64,000 bases of DNA, taken from assembly GCA_964016885.1 (NCBI GenBank), contig OZ024747.1, positions 87,854,001 to 87,918,000 on the forward strand, in the 5' to 3' direction. This stretch comes from Eledone cirrhosa. Lineage: Eukaryota. The notes beneath the pieces are model-generated. The model was not told the DNA's origin. It saw only the letters and a list, made by a program, of their open reading frames with translations, and ran no database searches. This document shows, one piece after another, positions 7,180 through 57,776 of the stretch. The first letter of the stretch is position 1, and each line of letters opens with the position of its first letter. Both the position numbers and the translations under genes were made by a program.

Positions 7180-9097
7180 TTCTTTTTTGTAAATATATTT
7201 CTGTATTCAAAAGCCTGAAACCTTTTTTTCGGTTATTTCAACATTTTAAGTAAACCAGAAATGCTTTCTAATTTAATTTTGCTTCTTTTATTTTCATCCC
7301 CATTATTTTTCCTCCTTTAAAAAGAAAAATAACAAATTTCTACAGCCATGTATATTTTGGTGCGTTTCGTGTAAATGTTGTCTTTCAAATAATTATGGAA
7401 ATATTTCTAAGATTTAAAAAAAAAAAAAAAAGAGCAAAAAAATAAAACCTGATATTGTTAAAACCTATCTGTTTACGTTATAAAATTGAACTTTGACATG
7501 TTGGGTATATTAACATCTTTAAAAGTATATAAGTTTTTTGTTGTTGAACTCGGCTATAAATTTGTTCTTAATTGCATTCTCCATAGGAAAATTGTAAGTG
7601 AATCAATTAGGTATAACTCTTAATATCCTGTAATGACTAAGCAGAAAATATCTAGAAATGGGTTTGTTCATTTTTACTAATGAACCTATCTTGGAAAATT
7701 TGCAGTAAACTTTAATTTTCGATGTGATGTAGCCATAGTGCAGTTATATACTTTTCATCAATGCTATTGTGGTTTTATGTGGTACAGGATGTTAAGAGTT
7801 GAAAAAAAGAAATGGCAATATATGGTTTTTGTGATTAGTTATTGTGGTTTATTATTATATTGGCAGTGTTGTTGAAATGACAGGTTATTATCATTGATGA
7901 TGAGAAAATTACAATTGTAAGCTATTGAGCAACTTCTCAGTCATGAAATTTACACCTCTAACATCATTACATACACTTGCAGAAGAACCACCCTCTTGGC
8001 AGTTTTCTGCTGGTATATGTAGTGTGCATATTGATATTATATGCAAATATATATGTATACGTAAATTGAAAACTAAATTGACAATATGCACATAAATTGA
8101 ACAAAGACTGATTCGCTTTATTCTGTAATCAGTAAAGTAATCCATGATATATTTAAAAAAAAAATTAAGATGGAACACTAACGGAAGTTGACATTTGAAA
8201 GTTTTAATAGAAGTAAATCTTGAAATAAGCAATACATATGTTTAATCAAGAGTTAAGAAATTTAGTAGATAAATTACATAATATTCATTCATGATTTATT
8301 CAAAGTAATCCAACTTATTTTAATAACGTGATGTAAAATAATAAACTGGACACAGTCTAGCAGTTCTCCAATCATGACATATAAGATTACCATGTCATAA
8401 TCCTTCAAAGTAGTTTTTGAAGTCTAATAGAACCTTATTGTTTGGTTTGTTATCCCTACCTAATTATTGCAGCTTTCTTTTGCTCTCGGTGGGTGGGAAC
8501 AGAATTTGTATACTCTCGGGTCCTAAATAATTAATTTTTCAGGGTTTTTTCCAGTCCTCCCTCCCTGCTTATTAAATTCTGCTAATCTATTTCTAGTAAA
8601 AATTTATTTTAAGTGGTAGCATCCCTGCAATTTTCTTTTAGACATTAAACAAACATATATGTCCCATATATAATACCAAATATTTCATTTAACTGTTTTG
8701 TTACCATACTTTCTCATGAAAGTCACTACTTATTATTTTAGAATTTTGCAAATAATGAAGAATTTGAAGGAATTTAATAATATAACTAACTTTTCGATTA
8801 TAAAGTTGGTGTTTGGAACTTAATTTTACAAAGGTTTTCACATAGAATTGTGATTGACAGTTTTTAAACACTTTTAAAACTAGCAGTTCAGTTTAGTATC
8901 AAAGGAGTTAAAAAAACGGGGGAAATGTATAAAATCATTATTTGTATTTTGTTAGATATATTGATCTTGAGTATGTTATGTTCATTTGTTTATAATTTTG
9001 TTCATGTAATGTGATTTTATTTGTAAATTTTTTTTTTTTTTTTTTAAATCTTTTATTTACTTAACTGTAATTTAAAAAAAATTTTTTTTTTTTGCAG

Positions 9098-12000
9098 GTG
9101 AAAGAGTGCTGCGCTATAGTTCTGCCACTTTGTCAGTAGAAGCTCTGATAGCACCTCAAACAACCACTGTGAAAAGGTCTTTGAAGAACTTCCTTGGAGC
9201 ACCTGTTAAGTACCATCACTTAATATATGCAGGCCATGTCTTGCATGGCTCTGGAGAATGGATTTTGCAAGATGCCCCCTTTTCCTTCAGCAACTTTGCC
9301 ACAACCCTGAAAGACCCTGATGTTGAGAATGCTTTGAAGCAGCAAGAAGAAGGAATATTAAACATTCATTGTTTTGCAACTGGAGAATGGAACAATGCAA
9401 ACCTGTCAAAGATTGGAAGCAAAGTACTTCAAATTAACTTGAACCCTGAGGATAAACTTTCTGACTTGACTGGTGTTTTGCAATTTAGCACTTACCTGTG
9501 CAACTATGTGAAATGTAGGTCACTAAAAGAAATGCTTCGGTCTTCTGATGTAGTTGGTAATATCAGATTCAGCAAACCAACCCTCTATGTATTCCCTGGT
9601 TGTCAAGGAGACTCTGCCTTGTTTGGAATTAGTGGCTTTAATCTATTAGTAAATGGTGGCTATAACAAAAAAGCCTGTTTCTGGGATTTTACTCGCCATC
9701 TTGACCGCATCGATGCACTCTTGCTCACGCATCTGGGTATTGACAACCTTTTTGGCATTAATTCAGTTTTACATCGTAAAAGCATTGAAAATGTACACCC
9801 AGAAATTGGTCATGTTTATTTCAATGCCCCCAAGGGTAACCGGAATTCTCAAGATGAATCAGAATTGGATGGAAAACCATCAGTGGACAGTTTACTGATA
9901 AATCTCTCTAATGAAGGAGATAAAATTACTGACTATGTGCGACAATTAGGACAAGTTGTCAATTCTTGTTCTCGGCCTGCAACTGCCCCTCAACTTGATC
10001 CAGTGAACCTTTACCACAAAGTAGGTCATGGATCTCTGGATATGTACATCATGAATCCTGTCCAAGACAGCAAGGAATTAAAGGAATTTTATCAGCAGTG
10101 GAGTAAACAATCAATCCAAGTGAATGCTTCGCAATTTCCACTCCCGAACATGTTGTCCATATGTGCACTTATTATTTGGCGACCAGCTGACCCATTAGAA
10201 AAAATTACTCGCATATTTTTCCCAGGGAATGCTCCTCAACACAAAATCATTGAAGGTCTTGAAAAAATGAAGACACTGAATGTGTTAAAGTTTCCGAAGT
10301 GCTGTGATAAAGATCTGAATGCTCCAAAAACTACTGTCAAGAAGTCTGCACCATTGAAAGCTACCAGGACTACTTCAAAACCATTGGCTAGCAAGAGTGA
10401 GCCTATTAAACGAGAATCTAGAGTAGAAGTGAAATCAAGGTCATCACTTACCAAAACTGCCACCAATAAGGGATTGAAAGATGACAACAATAAAAAAGCT
10501 AGCAAAGCAAAAGAAAAAGGTGATAAACCAAAATCAAGCAATGCTACTTCACCCAAAATATCGCCTCCTACTGAAGTGGCGCCTTCAGCTCAATCTCCTT
10601 TGGATGGTGTTCCTGCAATTCCTGAACCAGTTGCTCCTGTTGTCAAAGAATCCCCTCCTGATCTAGTGCAGAAAGATTCTAATCTACTCGTAGACTTTGG
10701 CAGTACACCTTCGGAACCACCTGTGCCCAGCCCAGCATCAGATCCCTTACTGGATCTAATTGGCCACCCTTCTATGAAAGCTGAATCTGAACAGTCAATG
10801 AATTTGAGCTCACCTTCTTTCATGAGCAACCAATCTCCTGAGCCTTTGCCAGACCCAAGTCATGTTGAGAGAGATACTACAGCAGAGCCAGAAGATGATC
10901 AACTTAGCAATAGATTAAATCTGAAACAAATGGAAGATATGGGTATTTATGATGATGTGTTAAGTCATACTCAACGTTCTGATGATGCAATTGAGGCTGA
11001 CAAGCTTGTATCTTCCAGTTCTGAAGACAAAGGATTTGATGAAATGGAGGAAGTTCAACCAGAGTCACTACCAGAACCAGATTTGGTTCTTGAAAGCCAG
11101 CCTATTCAATATGATGATTCAAGGCTTGGGTTTTCTGGAAGTGAATCAAAAACTCCATTCGAAAGTGAGATTACACCAGAAACAGCTGCCCTAGTTGAAA
11201 TGAGTCCTGAGAGGGAACCTTCTCCGCCATTGCCCATGGATTCTTGTATGTCAACATCTATGTATGGTAGTTTGTTGGAGCCATCCATGCCATCACAGGC
11301 TGAAGTTTTGCAGAATCTCCAAGATGACATTTCAGAAGAAAAAACTAAAGATGATTCCATCTCAGAAGATTGTTCTGAAATCAAAGAAAATCAGTTAATG
11401 CCTGAATGTGAAGAATTACCTGAGAAACCGCAAGATAATTTTGCATCTGATCAGCCAAGTTCTGATGCCTTCTCTCAAGGTTTTGAAAGTGAACATGTTG
11501 GACATGAAACTGCAGATTGTGAGGAAAAGCAACTTGATGGTGAATTGGATAGTCAATGCAGAGATACCAAGTCTCCTTCATTTGAGGGTCAACGTGCTGG
11601 TACCGAATCTCCTTCATTTGAGGGTCAACGTGCTGGTACCGAATCTCCTTCATTTGAGGGTCAGCATACAGGTACCGAGTCTCCTTCATTTGAGGGTCAA
11701 CGTGCTGGTACCGAATCTCCTTCATTTGAGGGCCAACGTGCTGGTACCGAGTCTCCTTCATTTGAGGGTCAACGTGCTGGTACCGAGTCTCCTTCATTTG
11801 AGGGTCAACGTGCTGGTACCGAGTCTCCTTCATTTGAGGGTCAACGTGCTGGTACCGAGTCTCCTTCATTTGAGGGTCAACGTGCTGGTACCGAGTCTCC
11901 TTCACTTGAGGGTCAACGTGCAGGTACCGAGTCTCCTTCACTTGAGGGTCAACGTGCTGGTACCGAGTCTCCTTCACTTGAGGGTCAACGTGCTGGTACC

Positions 12001-14073
12001 GAGTCTCCTTCACTTGAGGGTCAACGTGCTGGTACCGAATCTCCTTCACTTGAGGGTCAACGTGCTGGTACCGAATCGCCTTCATTTGAGGGTCAACGTG
12101 CTGGTACTGAATCGCCTTCCTTTGAGGGCCAGCACTCGGGTACTGAGTCCCCAGAGTACAAAAGGCAATACTCTGACACAGAATCTCCAGAGTACGAAAG
12201 AGAACACTCTGGTACTGAATCTCCAGATTACGAAAGGCAACATGCTGAGTCACCAGAATATGAAGATGAGCATGCCACTGGTAAGACCCCAGAAAGAGAG
12301 CAGGCAAATGAGGAAGCCTGCCAACAGGAACAGCATGAGCTGGAGGATAGTCCTGAACCTGAAGAACAAGAAAGCTCATCTGATGACCATCTGTCGGATC
12401 GAATCAGTCCAGAAAGTAATCAAGACACTGAAGAACTTAATCAGCGTTACAGTCCTGAAGGTTATGAGGCTGAGCAAGATTTGGGTGCTGGCTCACATAT
12501 GGAATTTCATGAAAAAGATGAAGACAAAGAGAATCATGGTCCAGAAGGTGATATGCATCAATCTGATAGTGGTACTGCCTTTGACCAATGTGATGAAGTA
12601 GACAAACAATCACATGAAGACCAAATTGATGATGAGGAAGATGATTCTTCTGAAGTGGCTTCTCAACCTGAAACTAATGAAGTAGCAATGGACTGGGACG
12701 AAAAAGAAAGGAGTCCTGAAGGCGACCACTTTGATAAACAAGATCATGCAGCAGCAGAACAAATGACTGGTGCTAGAGATGATGTATCTTCAATACCAGC
12801 AGCTTTTGAAAAGGATGAAACTCCTCAACGTGATGAATCTGTGAATGTACATCAATCCCCCAGTGATGAGTTCTCTAGTGAAGAGGGGGTGACTGCTGAT
12901 AAAGAAGCTGAAGATAGAGATGATACTGACTCTATTGATGGTGGTACACCTGATGATGAAAAGGATATTGATGAATCTTTTAGTTCTTCGAAACAGTCCT
13001 GTGAGCAATCAGCTGCTACAGCTGGTTGGAATTCCAATACCAGCAACTTGTCACCACTTGCACCACCATTTTCTCCAAGTAATCAACAGTCTTTTGATCC
13101 TTTTGGTCAACAAGGGGACATTCCTTGTATGGAAGGTCATGCTGCTCCTAATCCTGCTCCTAATCTTGATGGGTTTAATGCAGATGCTAAACCATTTGAA
13201 CCGGCTGATGAATGGGGAAAACCCATGAATCTTCCCAGTCCACCACCACCACTTGAATCTAGAAAGCCAAATGGTGTCACTGCTGCAAAGAGTCCCATGA
13301 GAGCTAGGCCAACAAATTCCAAATTTGATCCTAAAGCCACTGATAAAAAGTCAACTGACAACAAGAAAACTGAAACTAAGAAACCACCAACATCTTTAGG
13401 AAAACCTAGACCTTTAACAGAAAGAAAGAGTGCAGCCAGCAGCAAACCTGAGAAAAGGTTGGCCAATGGTGATGCTGATATGAAGAGTAAACCAAAGGCT
13501 CCTACCAGTAGCTTGGATAAAAGGTCAACTTCAGCAACTGCTGACAAGAAACCATTAACAAAATCACGTCCTTTATCTTCCACATTAAGTAAACCAGAGA
13601 ACAAAACAAACAGCGCTTCAAAAATGGATTCCAAGACCAAACTGTCAGCAACCAAACGTCCGACTACCACCAGTGGAAGCCGTACCTCTCCAGCCTCCAA
13701 GCCTGCTCCTCCTTTACCCCCTCACACTACTTTCTATGTAGACTTGACATATATTCCTAACCACGGTGATCCAACATCAAGTGATATTGAATACTTTAAG
13801 AGGGTACGAGCCCGTTACTATGTACTAAGTGCCCTCTCACCAAACCCTCAAATATTAAATGCTCTCTTGGAAGCGAAACAAACCTGGGAAGACAAGGACC
13901 TGGAAGTTACAGTTATTCCAACATATGATAATGAAACATTAAGACATTGGATGGGTTTAAACTGTGACCAATTGACTGAACTGAAGATTGATGTTGCCCC
14001 TTCTGCCAGTCGTTGCACAATCCAATTACAGGATCACGAAACAAGTTGCTCAGCTTATAGACTAGAGTTCTAG
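9098..14073 (+). CDS. futsch: MAP1A/1B/futsch-family microtubule-associated protein, ~5-kb terminal coding exon
   Basis: Acceptor ttttgcag|GT at 9096-9097; 1655-codon ORF ending TAG at 14073. N-terminal MAP1 motifs (KPTLYVFPGCQGDSALFGISGFNLLVNGG, WDFTRHLDRIDALLLTHLGIDNLFG, LYHKVGHGSLDMY, RIFFPGNAPQHKIIEGLEKMK), Lys-rich segment, acidic middle, and C-terminal light-chain domain (FYVDLTYIP...YFKRVRARYYV...LLEAKQTW...VIPTYD...SRCTIQLQDHETSCSAYRLEF). Confidence 0.95.
11563..12246 (+). repeat. Coding minisatellite: 16 near-identical 36-bp units (GTESPS[F/L]EGQRA) plus 3 degenerate units
   Basis: Unit ggtaccgagtctccttcatttgagggtcaacgtgct; 16 units span exactly 11563-12138, followed by GTESPEYKRQYS/DTESPEYEREHS/GTESPDYERQHA. 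Confidence 0.97.
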
Positions 14074-20379: not shown

Positions 20380-21180
20380 CCGACTCTCTCCACCCTGTCA
20401 ACCGAGAGCTTGACCTGAAACTCTCCAGACTTAAGCAGTCTACTATTAGCATATTACATAAACATAAGATACTCCCTAACCTCTCTAGGAAACATCTCAC
20501 TCTAAACAATGTGTGAGAAGGACCTCGTGTACTTCCCTTCCAATGAAGGGAAACAATTTTACATCATCTCTAAGGACACGTACAACAAACAGCTTAGCAT
20601 ATGAAAACCTTAACAACGGTGAACTATACTCAAGTGACATAGCTGCGTCACAGATTAAAGATCACATCAACACCACTTGGATGGATATCTGCAGATGGCG
20701 ACAACTTCCCAACAAATATAAAAACAATCTCACCACCAGAAACAGCAGACTGCCAACATTCTACCACCTCATTAAAACCCACAAACCCAGTGTAAATCTA
20801 CAGATTAGACCAATTGTCTCTACTATAGAAGGACCCCCTCTATAAAATCTGGTTCCTCAAGCCTATGCTTGCTACTTTTCCTATATATGTCAGCAGCTTC
20901 AACGAAGTCATACAAAGACTACATCAACTGCAACTTAAACTCAACAGATATGCTTTTAGCTTCAACATTGTCTCCCTCTACACAACAGTACCCGCTCATC
21001 CAGCAGTCAACCCAGTGACTGACTGCATCATTTCATACAACATACTGCTTCAGCCTGACCCCACAAGACATACATCGGCTTCTATCCGTCATCATAGAAA
21101 ATACATACTTCACTTTCCATCACCACACATACAAAAAAAAACAGGCCTACCCATGGGATTCAGTCTCATCTATATGAACT
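20380..21180 (+). mobile_element. Penelope-like element reverse transcriptase relic
   Basis: LPTFYHLIKTHK..IRPIVSTIEGPP, FSFNIVSLYTTVP and GLPMG are PLE-type RT motifs; frameshifted. Confidence 0.8.
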
Positions 21181-21489
21181 GTGGAGTGGTCAACACCTGC
21201 TGTTTCAGTAGTGACTTCGTCTGCCGACACAAATGTTCTCAATTCTTCTATTATACTAATTTTTTTAAAAACTTAACTATCTAAATCTTTACCAGTCTTT
21301 AAATGGTAACGTATCTAAAAAAAACTAAAAGTAATAATACCCAAAATTATACGAATTAAAATTAACAAAAGAAATCTTTACACTCATCTATTAATAGTTA
21401 AACAGTGTAAATCTCTATATGTATGAGTATATATACATATTTATGTTGTTTTTTACACATGGGTATATATATGTATGAATGGACCTTTC

Positions 21490-26493: not shown

Positions 26494-26591
26494 CAGGGTG
26501 TACCCCAAAAATGTATATACACTGTGATAACCTGTACAGCCAATATTTATTAGAATGCTGATGTGTGTATACATTTTTTGGGGACACCCTG
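26494..26591. mobile_element. Tc1/mariner-type MITE (related copy at 38486-38573)
   Basis: TIRs CAGGGTGTACCCCAAAAATGTATA / TATACATTTTTGGGGACACCCTG in a TA-repeat context. Confidence 0.75.
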
Positions 26592-35794: not shown

Positions 35795-38700
35795 ATTGTT
35801 TCTACTTTTGACACAAGGCCAGCAATTACCCAGTGTATTACTGGTACTTTATTTTATCGACCCCGTAATGATGAAAGCCAAAGTTGACCTCGGTGGGATT
35901 TGAACTCATAATAAAAAGGGCCGTAACTCTATGAGTCAAAGCATGACGTCCGGCCCTCTACCGATACTGCCAATCCACTGACTCATGGGTGGTGGAACTG
36001 GGTGGGGAACATGCCCCCTCCAATAATTATATTTTTCTCCCCAAACTACTAAAGCACACATCTTTTTCTATATGAACTATAATTCATGTACATGTTATGT
36101 TTATCACATATCAAAGTTTTTTATATCAGACAAAACAAGACAAACGAGTTGGATGTTTCTTACAAGAATCATCTAGTTTCTAGAAACCTTCGGTAATGAA
36201 ATAATTATATTGTGTTTTTTATTAATTTTTAAGTAAATAGCTCTGTACAATACATAGGGCACTCTTTTTTCCTTTACCTTTTCTATGGAAATACTTAACA
36301 TATCATCATTTCATTTTACGTCCGGCTTTTCCTTGCTTGCAAGGGTGGGACGGGAACTGATTCTGGCTTGATTTCTACAGCTGGATGCCCTTCCTAACAC
36401 CAACCTCATTTACAGTGAGTGCTGGGTGCTTTTTTTCCGTGGCACCTCCACGACCACTTTGCAGTGGAATGATAGGGACCCCAGTCGCTATCATCTCATT
36501 TTTACAGCTGAGTAAACTGGAGCAATGTGAAATAAAGTGTCTTGCCCAAGGAAACAACACATCACCCGGTCTGAGAATTGAACTCACAACCTTTCGATTG
36601 CAAGGCCAATGCTCTAACCACTAAGCCATGTGTGCTTATATATATATATAGTTGCTCCTTTCTAGAACATCAAATTTGCCCTTATAGCAACTTATGATTG
36701 TACTCTGCGTCAGTTATTGGGTATGACTCTGTCCTGTATTACCTGACCGACTATGCAGGTTATTAGTTTGACTCCTACTCCTCTCGATTCTTTTAGCATC
36801 TCATCAACTATCTCAGATGGTCCTGCAGCTTAACCATTCTTCATATGTCCCTTAAACATTGGGTATTAATATTGTTTCCTCAGAAACCAAGCAACAATCA
36901 GCTCCAATAGAATGAACAGTATTGTTGCTTTGAAAAGCAATAAAAAGAAATTATAGAAACCTTTCTGGAGGAGGTTGAAATCCAAATAACCCTGAAAATT
37001 CAGCCAAAAGCTCATCTTGTCCCTTAAACATTGGAAGCAACATTTCATGAAGTTCTTCTTCCTTGTGAGTCATTTTACGTTGCCATTCCGCAAAAATTCT
37101 CAAAACCTTTTGGTACTGACTGGGATGTTTCTCAAAGATAATCTGTGGAAAAAATAAGACAATATTAGTCAACAATCTCAAGTTGGAAAGTGTTTTTAGA
37201 TCTTTAGTTATAGTTTTATTAACTTCTTTGTGAACATATTTCTAACAAGTAAACTACCTAAGTGTTTTAACTGCTTTCTTAACATATTTCCAATGAAATA
37301 TACAACCTATGTTGTTATATTTGGGGAGGGTCATGTTATATTTGGGGAGGATCATGTTGTTCTAATATTGCCAGAAAGATATGAGATGTGGGAGACATGA
37401 AAAAATGAGAAATGTAAGGCTGGGAAACAAAACAGTAAAAAAAAAAAATTTAGAGAAAGATGGCCAGTGGGAGAGAGAATTACCTCAATTTTACGCAAGA
37501 AGTTGCGAGCCCTAAGAAAGTCTACTGTAGTTTTGTAACAGCCACAGAGGAGAGCATGTTCTGGAGAGAGGAATGCTGCAAAGTCACGTACAAGTTCAGG
37601 ATAGCCCTTCAGTAAATATGACAGGCTCTTATACAGCTGCAATGAGGAGAAAAATTTGGTAAGTTCCAACAAGATATCATAGGGCATTATATATATGAGT
37701 CCCGGGTTCAATCGGGAGTAACCACAGTTAGTAAGGTATTAAATACATTAGTAGAATATAAACATCAATTTTACTATAGAAATAACTTCTACAGGTCTAG
37801 AACTGTTTCATTCAAAAGAATATATGTAATATATATGCATATATATAATCTCAGGAATTTTACCTGCCTTAGATATATATATATATATATATATATATGT
37901 AAAACGTAAACACAAATAACAACACAATCGGTACAGTATATGGAAGGAATATATTAGATTAACGCTTGAAATAGCAGGAAGAAGGTCTTAACGTTTCGGA
38001 TGCTAGTCCTTCATCAGAAGAAAGAATGAGAAATAAGATAGATTGAAGGGACGGGCGGGTTGGAATTGGAAAAAATGTCTTTAGGTATATGCATATTCAT
38101 TTATGTTTTGTGGTTCATACTTATATAGACAAACCATGCCCCTGACCCCTGATGATATAGCCAGTCAACTATGAGGCCTTCCTGATAACAGTCTGAAACT
38201 AGTTGTTGAAATGGCAAGAGCTCAGCCATCAGGCCACAACTCTTTATATATGTATGTAAAAGGTAAACAGAAATAACAACACAATCGGTACAGTATATGG
38301 AAGGGATATATTAGGTTAACGCCTGATATAGCAGGAAGAGGGTCTTAATGTTTCGACACTAGTCCTTCATCAGAAGAAAGAATAAGAAATAAGATAGATT
38401 GAGGGGACGGGCGGGGTGGAATTGGAAAAAATTTCTTTAGATAAAAATAACAGGTCCATTCATGTTGACATCTCTTGCAAAACTGATGTCCCCCAAAAAT
38501 GTACACATACTTCAACAGCAAATATTGCCTGTACAGGTAATCAAAGTGTGTATACATTTTTTTGGTACACCCTATATATATATATATTTATTTATATATA
38601 TATATATATAGTGTCTGGAAGACAAAATAGAAATATATATGGAGGGGTGGGGGGCACTAATTATCAGGCATAGTTAATACTTATATGGGGATGATCACTT

Positions 38701-41700
38701 GGGAAACTTAGGTGTCATCATCATCATCATCATCGTTTAACGTCCACATTCCACGCTTGCATGGGTTTGGACTTTGTACTTAAGTAAGGCGGGTCTTCTC
38801 TATTACTGTGTAGCGCCAAAGGTCTCGGTCCAGTGACATTGTCTTGGAGAGGTGTAAGTGTGTGAGGTCGGAATTTATCAAGTCGTCCCAGGTTTTTCTG
38901 GGTCTGCCTACTCCGTGGCTACCGTCTATTTTTATTGCCCTGCACTTTTTTATACAGCTGTCGTCTTTCATGCGCATCACGTGACCATACCAACGTAGCC
39001 TTCTCTCGAGTAAACAACATCTGATCCCTCTTATTTCTAATTTTTCCCTTAGTTCGTTTATGCTTTGCCGTTCACGTATATTACTATTACACATCCAGCG
39101 GAGCATGCAAGCTTCGTTCTTCTCCAGTCTGTGTATATCCTCTGCACACAATGCCCAGGTCTCACTGCCATGTAACATTGCTGTTCATATGCAGGCATCA
39201 TACAGCCTGCCTTTCATTTTTAGAGAGAACCTTTTAGCGGCTAATAATGGTATAAGCTCTCTGAACTTTTTCCATCCAGTTCTGACTCTAGCTACTGTAC
39301 TTTCAGAACACCCTCCCCCACTGCTGATTTTGTCACCCAGGTAATGGAAGCTGTCCACTATTTCTATAGAACCATCTGTGCAATGGAGTGAGCTAGTTCT
39401 GTGGGCACTTGCTGCTACTTATTGCACCAGAGCAGTGGCCACATATAAAATAATGTTCTTAGTTAGCTTACCTGTGATCCCACTACATCTTTTATGCACC
39501 CATACTTTGCATTTGGGACATAAAATGGAGTTTCTACCTACTCCATTCCTACACACTGAGCATGGCCATTTCTCGGATGGGACCGGCGCCTTATTTTCTT
39601 TCCTACAAACTAGAACTTTAGTCTTAGACAGGTTAATTTTAAGGCCTTTTGATTCTAGGCCATGCTTCCATGTTTGGAGTTTCTTCTCTAGTTCGGCCAT
39701 TGATTCAGCTATGAGCGTTAGATCATCTGCGTATAGGAGTTCCCATGGGCAGCTGGTCTTGAACTCCTCTGTTATAGCCTGAAGGGCAATAATAAATAGT
39801 AGGGGGCTAAGAACGGAGCCCTGATGAACACCAACTTTTACGCTAAACTCTTCACTATATTCGTTGTTAATTCTAACCTTGCTGACTGTTTCTTTATACA
39901 TGGCTTGTATAGCTCTCACAAGCCATTCATCAACACCTAGTTTTCTAAGAGCCCACCATATAATGGAACGGGGGACTCTGTCGAAGGCTTTCTCCAAGTT
40001 GACAAAAGCTAAGTATAGAGGTTTACTTTTAGCTAGGTACTTCTCCTGCAGTTGTCGTACAATGAAAAGAGCGTCTGTGGTACTTTTACCTGACACAAAC
40101 CCGAACTGCATTTCATCTAGATCAATTCTCTCTCTGACTAGTTGCGCTATTACTTTTTCTGTGACCTTCATGACCTGGTCGATTAATTTAATGCCTCTAT
40201 AGTTACTCCTATCTAGAGCTTCTCCTTTACCCTTGTAGCAGTTAATGATGATGCTGCTACGCCAGTCCTTTGGAACAACCCCATTCTGTATGACTTGGTT
40301 TACTATCCGGGTGACCATGGTGTGTCCCACGGTTCCAGAAGCTTTCAGCATTTCAGCAACTATTTCCGAAGGCCCAGCCGCCTTACCCGTCTTCATATGT
40401 TTGATTGCCTTACTTATTATACTACCTTCGACTAACACTGCTGGTCCCTCTATTGGGTCGATGTGGGGGAGACTGTCTTTCTCCCATTTATTCTCCTCAT
40501 TTAGTAGCCTTTCGTAGTGACACTTCCAAGCTACTAGGTGTATTTTCTTTTTATAGCCACAGGTATGATCGTTCAGTTAAGGACTTCATTTTGCAACTAT
40601 ATCGTTTCAGGAAAGTGTCCCCTATCATAGTCTTAGATTGACCAATGCCTTGTTAATTAAACTTGGTAAACAGAAGACCGTTGTATGCATGTGGGTGTGT
40701 GTATCCCCCCCTACATGTCTGTTTACATTTACTGTTTACGTACCAATTCAGCAACTGATACAAAATAAAATATGTATCAGACCTGAAAAAAAGGTACTAG
40801 TGTCGATATGATTGATTAAGTCACTTCAAGATGGTCACAGTCTAATGATTCGAACAAGTAAAAGAATAAAAGAAATTCACATATATATTTCTGAGTTGAT
40901 CAAGACAAGTTTCTAGGTTTTCAATGAGAGTAGACAAGAAGAGACAAGTGAATATTATTATGACTTAAGACTTACTACAACAGGTGAATGATCACTCTTG
41001 CCAAACTCAAACAGAATCCTGAGGAATTGTTCATAGCGTTCTATATCAGTTTTCAACGTTTCTTTGACTTTATTTAGATAAGCCAGAGCAAAAATAGTGT
41101 CTCGATGATCTCTCTGAAACAAAAGTAACAAGGTAAGTAAACTTAAGAAGCCGCTAAGGATCCTAAACACATTTCAAAATATATAAACTACAAACTACAT
41201 GATAGACTACACAAGGAAGGAAAGCTTCAAATTCAGACAATGTTGTTAGCACTGCCAACATAATTTTGTTAGACCATTTGTAAAGTTATGCTCCAAACAC
41301 CAGCTTAATAATGGGAAAGTTAGTTATATGACTAAATTCTTCCAAATTCTTGATTATTTTCAAAATTATTTGAAAGGTCTTTCATTAAAAGTATAGTAAC
41401 GAAAGGGTTAAAGACATTCCAGCCACCATCCATCATTTTATATATATTAAGAACGCCATCATTCAATGAATCCTTCTTTTCTTAATACAGTAAAATGTAA
41501 GATGGTTGAAGGAGACTTAACTTCTATTTCTAGCAGGTTGAGCAACCACACAGGAGTTGCTTTCTTGTTGGCTCACAGAGAGTGCAGATTTAGAATGCAA
41601 TTCCCTTTATATATGTATACTGCATGTATCCAGTTTAGAATAGATACATCATATCTGAGTGTATTGTGTCAACTAAAAGGGTTTAGTGCTAGAAACATCA

Positions 41701-53700: not shown

Positions 53701-56700
53701 TAACGTCACTAATAACTTACTTGTAATTTGTACCATTCGATCATTTCTAAAGTCTTCATCATCTGGGAGTTCATTCTCAGCTTCAGCTAGGTAGTTATAC
53801 TCTGGGTCATTGGCATCGTCATCAAGGGCTTCACTTGGGTCTTCTACATCTGTAAAGATGAACAAATGTCAGAGAAAGAATAACAAGAAAGTGAGAGGAT
53901 GGAGGAAAGAATAAGAGAACAAAAAGCAAGAATCAAGACAAAGAGACAGAAAGTAAAATAGAAAGAAATCTGATATAGAAAGAAGAGCCCCTCCCACCAA
54001 AAAAGAGATCATCATCATCATCATCATCATTTTACGTCCGCTTTTCTCTGCTTGCAAGGGTGGGACGGGTCTTATTCAGCACAGCATCTCTCCACTCGTC
54101 ACGGTCCTTCGTCATCTCCACCATGAGCTTCAATGATCTGAGGTCTGTTCTCACCACCTCCGCCCATGTTTTTCGTGGTCTACCTCTACCACGTCTTCCT
54201 TCAACTGGCATTTTCTGGCACTTCTTCACCCATCGGTCATCCTCCATGCGCATCACATGTCCATACCACCTCAGTCTCCTCTCCCGTACACTACATTCTA
54301 TCCCTCTCAGACACAGTTTCTCTCTCAACACATTTATGCTGGGTCGTTCACGCACATTTACACTGCACATCCAACGGAGCATGCTTGCCTCATTTCTCTC
54401 CAGCCGTCGCATATCCTCTGCAGTTGCTTCCCATGTCTCACTACCATGCAGCATCGCGCTCCTCACACAGGCATCATACAACCGGCCTTTCGTACGCAGG
54501 GAGAAACCCTTCTTCGTCAACAGAGGAAGCAGCTTCCTAAACTTCTTCCAACCCGTCCTTATTCTAGATACTATGGCCTCGGAACACCCTCCTCCCATGC
54601 TAATCTGATCTCCTAGGTACCGGAAGCTATCCACCACTTCTATAGCGCCCGTCTGCATTTGAAAAATGTGTCTATCAATGCGACTTCTACTGTCTAATTT
54701 CCCTGTACATCTACTGCATACATATTTCTCCCTACCTGTTAGTTTGCCTGCTATCCCGCTACATCTCTTGTGTACCCAGGATCTGCATTGTGTGCATTTT
54801 ATAGAATTTATGCCAGTTCCTTTTCTGCATATCGAACATGGCCATTTCCCTGACGGAATCAGGGTTTTGTCCTCTTTTCTACTCAACACTTTTGTCTTAG
54901 CTAGGTTCACTCTCAGTCCTCTTGCTTCCAACTGCTGTCTCCGTAGCCAGAATTTATTCTCTAGCTCCTCTACTGATTCTGCTATAAGAACCAGATGGTC
55001 AGCATAGAGAAGTTACCATGGACAGCCAGTCTTAAACTCCTCTGTTATGGCTTGGAGGACTATAATGAACAAGAGCGGGCTGAGGACCGAACCCTGATGT
55101 ACTCCTACTTGTATCTGGAATTCCTCACTAAACTCCATTCCTACCCTGACTTTACTGAGAGTACCTCTGTACAAAGTTTGCACTGTCCTCACAAGCCATT
55201 CCTCAACACCTAGCTTCCTTAGGGACCACTAGATGACAGATCGGGGTACCCTATCAAAGGCCTTCTCTAGGTCAACAAAGGCTAAGTATAGTGGCTTATT
55301 TTTCTCTAAGAACCTCTCTTGCAATTGTCTCACCAAGAAGAGGGCATCTGTTGTACTCTTCCCAGGCACAAAACCAAACTGCATCTCATCTAGTTTGATC
55401 CTTTCTCTAATTAGTTGTGCTAATATCCTTTCTGCCACTTTCATAACCTGATCTATCAGTTTTATACCCCTATAATTGCTCCTCTCCAGAGCATCCCCTT
55501 TACCTTTGTAGCAATTTATGAGAATACTGCTGCACCAGTCTTTGGGTATGACACCACCATATATAGCCTGATTGATGATGCGTGCAATCAGTTTAGTGCC
55601 TACGTCCCCTGATGCCTTCAGCATCTCAGCAACTATTCCCGATGGTCCAGCAGCCTTACCATTTTTCATTTCCCTAATCGCCTCTTGGACCCTATATTCG
55701 TCAATCTCAATAGCTGGTCCCTCTGTCGGATCTACTAAGGGTAATTTCTCTCTCTCCCATTCGTTCTCCACATTCATCAGTCTCTCATAATGACATTTCC
55801 AGGCCTCCTTTTTCTGATCATTCATGACACTAAGTACACCGGCATCATCCCGGACACATTTATCTCCAACATCCTGATTTGCATTGACACACTGCCTTGC
55901 AATGTGGAACACCGCACACCTCTGATCTTCCCGTCGCAGAACATTGGCAAACCTCCTACTCTCTGCCTCCCTGCGTGCTAAGTACACCTGACGTCTAGCT
56001 TCTCTCTTAGTGGCTGTATATTCTTCCCTACTCCCACCCTTTTTCCAAGCCTTCCATGCTAGTCTTTTGTCTCTAATGGCCTTATCTACTGTGCTGTTCC
56101 ACCACCAGGTCACTCTCTGTCTGGTTGGAGCTCTGCTCCAGCCACAAATTTCATCAGTAGCCTGCAGCAAGTTGTCACGTAAGAAATTCCAGTTATTATC
56201 TATGTCATACATCTCTAAATCGTCTTCTTTTTCGTCATATACATCTTGAAGGGCTTTCCTAAATTTGTATTTTAGTGAAAGGTCTTTTAGCTTCCAGACA
56301 TTTCTTCTCCACACCTTCCTATATGTCTCATTCCATCTCTTGCTTACTGAGCTATCACTAACAACTAACCTATGCTGTGGGGTACATTCTTCCCCAGGGT
56401 ATGCCTTGGTATTAGACACTATCTGCCTGTCCCACTGCCTAACTAGCAGGAAGTCAATCTGGCTTATGTGCTCACCAGATTTGTAGGTTATTACGTGATT
56501 GGCAGGTTTCTGGAAGTTTGTGTTGCAAATAGTCAATGTACCTGCATCACAAAATTCAAGAAGTCTCACTCCTTCTTCATTTCTTGAGCCGTAACCGTGC
56601 CCACCATGTACCCCTGTGTAACCATCCTGGAGCTGTCCAACATGACCATTGAAGTCTCCTGCTAGCATAACGATGTCTCCGTCCTCTGTCATTGCGGTTG

Positions 56701-57776
56701 TTTGTAAAAGTTGCTCGTAAAAGCAGTCTTTCTCATCTTTGCCTAGGCCTGCTTGGGGAGCATAGGCCAAGATGATTGTCAGATGAGAGAATAAATTAAC
56801 TCTTAACATCTATTAATGATTTAGCAGGTTAATTCAAATATTTACATATCTTTAACCCTTTAGCATTTACATTCCTCAATATTTACTAGAGTATTTTCAT
56901 GGCAAACACTTTACCTCATAATTGTCTCATATAATATAGAGATTTGGATATTATTTATTTTGAGAACAATACCTTAATGTAAGTATGAGCAGCCGATTAA
57001 AGCCGGTTTGAACAGAGAGAGGTGAGAGAATTCTGGCCAGATACAACCAGTTTAAATGCTAAAGGGTTAATTGAAATATTTACAGTATCTTTAATGCTTC
57101 ATAAATCATTGTTAAAATTTGCAGTATTAGAGTAAATACTCTAATTTTTAATGTGATGCAGACATAGTGCTGTTTTGTATATTTTTCAAAAGTGATTTAC
57201 TAATTTAGTTCCATGCAGTACAGGATGTTAAGAGTTAAAAAGAAAATAAATGGGAGCAAAAAAAACAAACAACTGAACTGACCTTCGCTTTTGGTAAGTG
57301 ATTTTAAAAAGTCTTGCCAATCCTTATCATTGCACTCTGTATCATACATGTCTTGAGTAATGTCAGGAGCTACAAAACTAGCCTCTATCTCAGTAAGAGA
57401 TGTGTCATGCAAAGGTAGCTTCGAACGGGTTCGACGGGCAATTGTCTCCTCAGTTACGTCCTCCTATAGAAATAATATTCCAAATGAAAGAGTACAGCAG
57501 AAGAGTACATTAGTTGTTGGGAGGGGGGGGGGAGGGGGGGTGCATCCAATAATTTCTTATTGTTTTGTTACTCTCATAAGTTCCTGAATTCAATTCCTGA
57601 ATCAGGTGGCTTGTTGTGTTCTTGAGGTAGTGGTTGCAGTTAAGGTTGCTTTACATGACAGGACTGGGGTCCCTATCTATATTTAAATTTGAGCAGCTTC
57701 TGTCTGTCACACAATGTTTGTTTGTGTGAATGTATGTCTGTCAGTGTGTATTTTCTTAAGTGTGTCTGTGTTTGCC

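What the first reader, a model, noticed from the sequence alone, without database searches (positions are those of the whole stretch)
37898..38440. Tandem minimal hammerhead-ribozyme motifs on the sense strand of GON4L intron 19
Seen: two ~187-bp direct repeats ~357 nt apart. On the minus (GON4L pre-mRNA) strand, the 37986-38021 copy reads UCUU-CUGAUGA-A-GGA-cuagca-UCC-GAAAC-GUU-AAGA and the ~38343-38376 copy reads UCUU-CUGAUGA-AG-GAC-uagu-GUC-GAAAC-AUU-AAGA. Stem II differs in sequence but can pair in both. Stem III has no loop (palindrome AACGUU in the first copy). Established: Penelope-like elements carry minimal type I hammerheads with a palindromic helix III that are thought to cleave as dimers. 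Inference: the two copies could form a double hammerhead within the host intron, cutting the pre-mRNA or releasing a ~357-nt retrozyme-like RNA. The second copy has G16.2->A, so the pair may be partly decayed.
Basis: partly seen in the sequence, partly recalled or inferred. Interest (0 to 1): 0.72.

Follow-up and report, generated by a model that had tools for sequence, protein, structure and literature searches.

The report
Decayed Penelope retroelement hammerhead pair
The two hammerhead-type RNA motifs in this octopus gene intron are separately inserted, mutation-damaged tail ends of a jumping gene that has thousands of copies in the genome, and they are likely inert passengers rather than a working RNA-cutting pair.

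Summary
The motifs are real, 357 nt apart, on the sense strand of a 3,339-nt intron of a GON-4-like gene that is seen spliced out. Both are 5'-truncated 3' ends of a Neptune-like Penelope-like retroelement (RT plus C-terminal GIY-YIG); its 34-nt hammerhead has 2,812 exact genomic matches. The copies share no derived change, so they inserted independently. Their different stem II is not covariation: both come from one family stem by CpG decay and a deletion; G16.2>A is also CpG decay. Same-orientation neighbours occur at 7 of 85 loci. Core positions decay at the flank's rate. A double hammerhead would carry an A·C mismatch in helix III, so at most one site could cut. Cleavage is untested. The scan reported the same kind of object in other genomes. 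Ordinary.

The parts
37898..38087 (-). Family A copy A: 5'-truncated 3' end (pLTR piece) of a Neptune-like Penelope-like element, 9 differences in 186 nt from the family majority
37986..38021 (-). Minimal type I hammerhead motif of copy A: core and palindromic helix III half intact; one stem II pair lost by CpG decay (G>A); predicted cut 37990/37989
38255..38485 (-). Family A copy C: independent, longer 5'-truncated end of the same element, 6 differences in 186 nt
   Evidence: loose ends of other copies at 38485
38343..38377 (-). Minimal hammerhead motif of copy C: G16.2>A and a loop C>U at CpG sites, one C deleted from stem II
38116..38245 (+). Family B end (the 'spacer'): older dispersed repeat, tail to tail with copy C, antisense to the host gene; start approximate
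38146..38233 (+). Predicted type I hammerhead fold of family B: CUGAUGA 38149-38155, long stem II, GAAA 38208-38211, 5-bp helix III, site AUC at 38228-38230; first pair of stem I broken (C·A) in this copy
   Evidence: inference from core and pairing, no covariation above shuffles
38245..38254 (.). Short TA-rich microsatellite shared by the 3' ends of B and C
37870..37897 (.). (TA)n tract at the 3' end of copy A
37696..37820 (-). Family D end: third repeat family; this copy is cut inside its hammerhead and lacks CUGAUGA, keeping only GAAA..GUA/GAAG
37637..40975 (-). Host intron (19th by coding-exon count) of the GON-4-like gene, GT..AG, spliced out in one contig

Best explanation
The two motifs are independently inserted, 5'-truncated 3' ends of an abundant Neptune-like Penelope-like retroelement, stacked with other repeat ends at TA microsatellites in the intron, and they are likely catalytically silent passengers that leave the intron with normal splicing. 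Shown: family membership, link to RT and GIY-YIG coding, (TA)n/(CA)n 3' flanks, independent origin, lesions, uniqueness of the 357-nt unit, splicing of the intron in one contig. Inferred: the element's endonuclease cut at TA tracts and reverse transcription stopped early, leaving about 190 and 230 nt; the hammerhead served the parent element (likely as a dimer or with protein help) and has decayed since insertion, mostly at CpG sites. Inferred, not tested: no meaningful cleavage of the host pre-mRNA.
For: 2,896 first-look candidates, best 40 at 95-100%. 2,812 exact matches to the 34-nt motif, 1,406 per strand, 0 for the reversed control. Among the 100 listed matches the helix III CpG reads CG 86, TG 7, CA 7 (counted by hand), the symmetry expected of CpG deamination. 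Longer copies run into GIY-YIG and RT coding (RVT_1 E=9.6e-9). L130 has the hammerhead end upstream of RT-EN and L129 is a partial tandem. The window copies share 0 derived changes and were one clade in 0% of 200 bootstrap trees. Private non-CpG changes: core 9/372 vs 5' flank 63/2966, p=0.70, in 39 copies not picked by the motif. A second same-orientation piece lies within 1.5 kb at 7 of 85 loci. The constrained double fold costs about 8 kcal/mol more than with undecayed motifs (27.8 vs 19.9). Literature: min-HHR monomers showed no detectable cleavage and dimers low cleavage (PMC4209133); the Anolis PLE hammerhead did not cleave without its protein and no reads ended at its site (PMC11167929).
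Against: No cleavage assay and no raw RNA reads. Copy A keeps all core bases and passes the descriptor. A hybrid of copy C's core with copy A's site has all nine modelled pairs Watson-Crick. Counting all non-CpG differences, the motif varies less than the 5' flank (37/742 vs 186/1837, p=1e-5); for private changes over the whole 36-nt motif p=0.04 in one set and 0.12 in the larger, so mild constraint is not excluded. The energy model also disfavours the undecayed control, so its absolute values say little. The tree is weakly resolved (no starred branch). One spliced contig does not exclude partial cleavage.
Confidence: 0.88

Rival explanations
1. A single-site hybrid hammerhead forms by chance: the core and stem II of the upstream copy pair with the intact cut site of the downstream copy and cut the intron slowly at 37990/37989, perhaps helped by the element's own protein, with little effect on the gene.
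For: All nine modelled pairs of the hybrid are Watson-Crick. Both copies are on the transcribed strand. Protein-assisted cleavage is reported for an Anolis PLE hammerhead (PMC11167929).
Against: Helix III has only two pairs; the upstream stem II is 3 bp with two extra bases before it. The hybrid lies 15.4 kcal/mol above the ensemble and trans stem I has pair probability under 0.001. All family ORFs translated here are broken.
Confidence: 0.07
2. One reading: a working double hammerhead cuts at both sites and releases a 357-nt retrozyme-like RNA that can circularise.
For: Same orientation, 357-nt spacing within the size range of animal retrozymes (PMC7229834 passages); earlier scan notes report tandem hammerhead arrays elsewhere in this genome (not checked here).
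Against: A·C mismatch at the second site. The unit is a chimera of two families in opposite orientation and is unique. As a circle it folds no better than shuffles (z=+1.1). The copies are independent insertions.
Confidence: 0.02
3. The host has domesticated the pair as a regulator of GON-4-like splicing, like the conserved intronic hammerheads of amniotes.
For: Sense orientation, 350-740 nt upstream of the 3' splice site; precedent in RECK and other introns (PMC6155905 passages).
Against: Four of the 15 changes in the two copies fall inside the motifs, three of them in pairing positions. The family inserts at about one intact motif per megabase, so a sense intronic pair needs no selection.
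Confidence: 0.02

Closest known systems
Minimal type I hammerheads (min-HHR) in pLTRs of metazoan Penelope-like elements (Cervera and de la Pena 2014, PMC4209133; parts 1-2 of 4 read)
   Same: CUGANGA/GAAA core, extra base between positions 9 and 10.1, G10.1-C11.1 pair, 4-bp helix I, palindromic 15.2-16.2 with no loop, most copies dispersed as single truncated ends.
   Different: Helix II is 4 bp, shorter than the 7-8 bp of the Schistosoma motifs. Host is an octopus, which the parts read do not mention. Both window copies are damaged.
Neptune-type C-terminal EN+ Penelope-like elements (Craig et al. 2021, PMC8557442; passages, section 11, supplement rows)
   Same: RT followed by a CX4CX2C linker and a GIY-YIG nuclease with two internal cysteines and downstream histidines; hammerhead-bearing end upstream and downstream of the ORF; microsatellite targets.
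   Different: Clade placement rests on motifs, not on a tree with references, so Nematis is not formally excluded. The window holds only non-coding ends.
Animal non-LTR retrozymes (Cervera and de la Pena 2020, PMC7229834, passages; Li, Clavereau and Pollet 2026, bioRxiv 10.64898/2026.07.22.740005, part 1 of 5 and passages)
   Same: Two type I hammerheads a few hundred bases apart in one orientation; Penelope origin.
   Different: No repeated unit: the spacer is another family, antisense, and the unit is unique. One motif is incomplete. No sign of a self-paired circle.
Conserved intronic hammerheads of amniotes, e.g. RECK (PMC6155905, passages)
   Same: Type I hammerhead on the sense strand of an intron.
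   Different: Those are single, conserved across species and canonical; these are young high-copy insertions with lesions.

Membership tests
PLE minimal hammerhead (min-HHR) | Core CUGANGA and GAAA, NUH site | tested here: met
   Both copies have CUGAUGA, GAAA and U16.1-U17
PLE minimal hammerhead (min-HHR) | Unpaired base between 9 and 10.1 and G10.1-C11.1 pair | tested here: met
   Family motif and copy A meet it; copy C has two extra bases after its deletion
PLE minimal hammerhead (min-HHR) | Palindromic 15.2-16.2 pair allowing a dimer helix III, copy A and family | tested here: met
   C-G in copy A and in 86 of 100 listed matches
PLE minimal hammerhead (min-HHR) | Palindromic 15.2-16.2 pair, copy C | tested here: not met
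   C·A; fails the descriptor
PLE minimal hammerhead (min-HHR) | Self-cleavage as a dimer | not testable with these tools
   Needs an in vitro assay
EN+ Penelope-like element, Neptune type | RT with C-terminal GIY-YIG nuclease joined to the hammerhead end | tested here: met
   L016, L023, L028, L081-L086, L129-L133; RVT_1 E=9.6e-9; GIY-YIG Pfam only weak, E=0.028-0.074, below cut-off
EN+ Penelope-like element, Neptune type | CX2-5CxxC linker and CCHH motif | tested here: met
   Read by eye in translations of L083, L086, L095 against the description in PMC8557442
EN+ Penelope-like element, Neptune type | pLTR: same end upstream of the ORF, partial tandems and inverted ends | tested here: met
   L130, L129; inverted ends in L087, L089, L134
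EN+ Penelope-like element, Neptune type | Fixed 3' end at microsatellites, variable 5' truncation | tested here: met
EN+ Penelope-like element, Neptune type | Placement in the Neptune group on an RT tree | not tested
   No reference RT set was fetched
Non-LTR retrozyme | Tandem repeats of one unit, found repeatedly in the genome | tested here: not met
   Unit only at its own place among 164 loci held; junction query gave 2 candidates, itself and a partial hit
Non-LTR retrozyme | Complete hammerhead in at least two consecutive units | tested here: not met
   Copy C incomplete
Non-LTR retrozyme | Expressed circular RNA | not testable with these tools
   Only contigs were available; no raw RNA reads
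Domesticated intronic hammerhead | Conservation in orthologous introns across species | not testable with these tools
   No related genome is held for this window
Type I hammerhead (family B, spacer) | Core plus three helices | tested here: inconclusive
   Core words and 83.6% paired cells against 16-43% in slid controls, but no covariation above shuffles, and U·U/U·C at 10.1-11.1 instead of G-C

The most novel reading that the evidence does not exclude
Thousands of intact Penelope minimal hammerheads lie scattered through the octopus genome, hundreds of them in same-orientation pairs; chance pairs such as this one assemble hybrid hammerheads from two independent insertions, and the retroelement's own protein switches them on, so that retroelement activity cuts host pre-mRNAs such as GON-4-like inside their introns.
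Probability: 0.04. Interest if true: 0.62.

Novelty: new member of a known kind. Interest (0 to 1): 0.14.

Why it matters
As found, it matters little: it adds an octopus Neptune-like family to a class described in 2014 and shows how TA-targeting retroelement ends pile up in introns and mimic a designed ribozyme pair. It is a useful caution, since CpG decay of one ancestral stem can look like covariation. If the hybrid reading were true, retroelement debris would be a conditional source of pre-mRNA cleavage across a genome with roughly one intact motif per megabase.

Tried and rejected
Rfam scan of 36500-40000 to E=10: no hammerhead family hit. Run search: no RNA holder listed; laying contigs cannot show RNA ends, and repeat coverage comes from other copies, so nothing is concluded on expression or cleavage ends. 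Local tandem duplication: rejected, no shared derived change. G16.2>A as a subfamily trait: suggested by 13 of 29 top hits lacking the C-G pair, rejected as query bias once the position-ordered list gave TG 7, CA 7. Apparent perfect conservation of the core (0 of 290 cells): from copies picked by likeness to a query containing the motif; it vanished for private changes in copies picked by the tail or met by the way. Monomer folds of both copies and of an undecayed copy: no better than shuffles. Covariation in family B: not above shuffles. An undecayed family B copy by degenerate pattern: no match. An ORF for family B or D: none found by tblastn of three probes against the loci held; the Hydra-type nuclease in L036 lies downstream of B's 3' end and has its own motif, so it was not assigned to B. 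PDB sequence search with the RT: no hit. Lunse et al. (PMC5785218) is not held; it is cited only through a review. Earlier-findings look-ups by sequence and nearby place were empty.

Full report
Observation. Both motifs are in the sequence as described, on the minus strand at 38021-37986 (copy A) and 38377-38343 (copy C), with predicted cut sites 357 nt apart, inside repeats 91.5% identical over 200 nt. A minimal-hammerhead descriptor finds copy A as the only hit in the window and no minimal-type hit in 30 shuffled windows; copy C fails it. Rfam has no hit to a hammerhead family here. The host gene runs on the minus strand: P0001 gives 27 ordered tblastn hits and the motifs fall between the 19th and 20th; its cluster members are named GON-4 or GON-4-like in Octopus species, with PAH and Myb-like domains. 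One contig of run X4 joins 37636 to 40976, removing a 3,339-nt GT..AG intron. That run is not on record as RNA, but the contig skips two introns exactly.

What the repeat is. The 191-nt query has 2,896 first-look candidates in the 3.0-Gb genome; the 40 scored are 95-100% identical. The 34-nt motif, with only the helix III CpG left free, has 2,812 exact matches, 1,406 on each strand, and the reversed control has none. Copies end at one fixed 3' point followed mostly by (TA)n or (CA)n and start at variable 5' points. Longer copies run upstream into a GIY-YIG nuclease and a reverse transcriptase. An RT piece from L023 has 12,428 candidates, 150 scored. L083 gives RVT_1 at E=9.6e-9; the nuclease gives only weak Pfam GIY-YIG scores, below cut-off, but shows a CX4CX2C linker, two cysteines between the GIY and YIG words and downstream histidines, the features that Craig et al. 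give for Neptune and Nematis elements (PMC8557442 passages). L130 has the hammerhead end upstream of RT-EN in the same orientation and L129 is a partial tandem, the pLTR layout. I call the family Neptune-like on motifs; no tree with references was built. All ORFs I translated (5 loci, 6) are broken; some unfetched hits have open frames of 600-950 codons, so an intact copy is not excluded.

The two copies are independent and damaged. Against the majority of 29 other copies, C has 6 differences and A has 9 in 186 nt, none shared; the two were one clade in 0% of 200 bootstrap trees, though the tree has no well-supported branch. They also differ in 5' truncation, 38087 and about 38485. The family stem II is GGAC/GUCC with a four-base loop. 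Copy A has a CpG G>A that breaks one pair; copy C has a CpG C>U in the loop, a deleted C, and G16.2>A. So the different stems are not covariation. In the 100 listed matches the helix III CpG reads CG 86, TG 7, CA 7 (hand count), as expected of deamination on either strand.

The spacer. It is not part of family A. It matches another dispersed family (B; 903 and 736 candidates, 74-86% identity for the longer hits) whose 3' end points the other way and shares a TA tract with copy C. Family B reads as a type I hammerhead on the plus strand, antisense to the gene: CUGAUGA at 38149, a long stem II, GAAA at 38208, a 5-bp helix III and a GUC/AUC site. In 24 aligned copies 83.6% of cells pair, against 16-43% for slid controls, but covariation does not exceed shuffles; two truncated copies, one without the 3' part and three without an anchor were left out of that alignment. 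The window copy has a C·A mismatch next to the cut site. A third family end (D; 4,431 candidates) lies at 37820-37696; complete copies pass the descriptor (L009, L073) but this one lacks CUGAUGA. The 357-nt unit was found only at its own place among 164 loci held, and its A/B junction has two genomic candidates, itself and a partial match. As a circle it folds no better than 60 shuffles (z=+1.1). A second piece of family A lies within 1.5 kb in the same orientation at 7 of 85 loci, five of them overlapping the motif, and in the opposite orientation at 6. Such pairs are a by-product of shared microsatellite targets (inference); a review notes that these elements insert next to earlier copies (PMC6765202 passages).

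Selection. In 26 copies picked by the 3' tail (three segmental duplicates dropped from 29), all non-CpG differences are fewer in the motif than in the 5' flank (37/742 vs 186/1837, p=1e-5). That count mixes inherited subfamily differences with decay. For private changes only, with 13 incidental copies added, the core has 9/372 and the flank 63/2966 (p=0.70); the whole motif gives p=0.12, and p=0.04 in the tail-picked set alone. Only 6 of 37 copies have the full 36-nt motif intact, and 18 of 37 keep the core and the C-G pair. I read this as constraint in the parent lineages and near-neutral decay after insertion, with a small sample.

Mechanism. In a double hammerhead each core uses the other copy's site. 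Here helix III would be A-U, C-G, A·C, U-A, so the site of copy C is mismatched and a 357-nt product, which needs both cuts, is unlikely. The constrained double fold lies 27.8 kcal/mol above the ensemble, against 19.9 for a control with an undecayed motif in both places; the model disfavours even the control, so only the difference is informative. The one-site hybrid (C core, A site) has nine Watson-Crick pairs but lies 15.4 kcal/mol above the ensemble. Published min-HHRs showed no monomer cleavage and low dimer cleavage (PMC4209133, parts 1-2 read). The Anolis Poseidon hammerhead cleaved only with the element's protein, was not needed for insertion in vitro, and left no read ends at its site (PMC11167929, part 1 and passages). 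The most likely state is silent passengers removed with the intron (0.88). Slow one-site cutting is the best rival (0.07).

Comparison and novelty. It works like, and the family is a member of, the PLE minimal hammerheads; copy C fails the helix III test. It is not a non-LTR retrozyme by the unit and completeness tests (definitions from PMC7229834 passages, and bioRxiv 10.64898/2026.07.22.740005). Searches for octopus with Penelope and hammerhead and for octopus genome with Penelope listed no paper on this family by title or abstract start; an Octopus vulgaris repeat annotation counts Penelope-like elements and has no occurrence of 'ribozyme' (PMC13282606 passages). Repbase and the bioRxiv supplements could not be seen and may hold the family. 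Earlier notes of this scan describe the same kind of object in other genomes and many hammerhead repeats in this one; they are unchecked and not used as support. Verdict: real, explained, ordinary; interest 0.14.

Noticed in passing
window 38146-38233 (+); loci L050-L077: Family B predicted hammerhead has a long stem II, a 5-bp helix III whose loop holds the palindrome GAGCUC, and U·U/U·C instead of G-C at 10.1-11.1. No coding partner found; copies show two alternative 3' ends and inverted pairs (L033, L036).
   Followed up: partly
window 37696-37820 (-); L009, L040-L048, L073, L132: Family D, and a further family seen three times in L132, also have a U·pyrimidine pair at 10.1-11.1 and a real helix III. 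Several D copies are truncated or inverted right at the hammerhead's 5' edge (L041, L042, L047).
   Followed up: partly
L036:1643-2320 (+): GIY-YIG nuclease with DKT, CxCX5C, CxxC and CxH motifs, as described for Hydra-clade Penelope-like elements, followed by its own hammerhead-like core; weaker relatives in L062 and L110.
   Followed up: partly
window 38486-38571 and 26498-26584: Short inverted-repeat element (MITE-like hairpin), two copies in the window at 79% identity; abuts the 5' end of copy C.
   Followed up: no
window 38736-40576 (-): Decayed LINE with RVT_1 (E=1e-31) and a PHD-like finger, ending in (CAT)n, fills most of the same intron; a similar one lies at about 54035-56809.
   Followed up: partly
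window 36571-36628 (-): tRNA-like sequence (28.1 bits, just under the Rfam cut-off), probably a SINE head; the same head follows repeat ends in L048 and L099.
   Followed up: no
window 9076-14070 (+): 1,665-codon open frame with MAP1B N-terminal and MBL-like domains (E=3e-29, 7e-88), a MAP1/futsch-like gene convergent with the GON-4-like gene.
   Followed up: no
window 20489-21281 (+): Broken frames that resemble a Penelope-type RT by eye; no Pfam hit and no tblastn hit with the family A RT.
   Followed up: partly
L141-L144 (G000:C2, about 43-45 kb apart): Four family A copies with the same score at regular spacing, suggesting a tandem segmental duplication.
   Followed up: no
L139:522-701 and 1500-1580: Another same-orientation pair of young family A copies about 1 kb apart; a candidate for a less decayed natural pair.
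   Followed up: no
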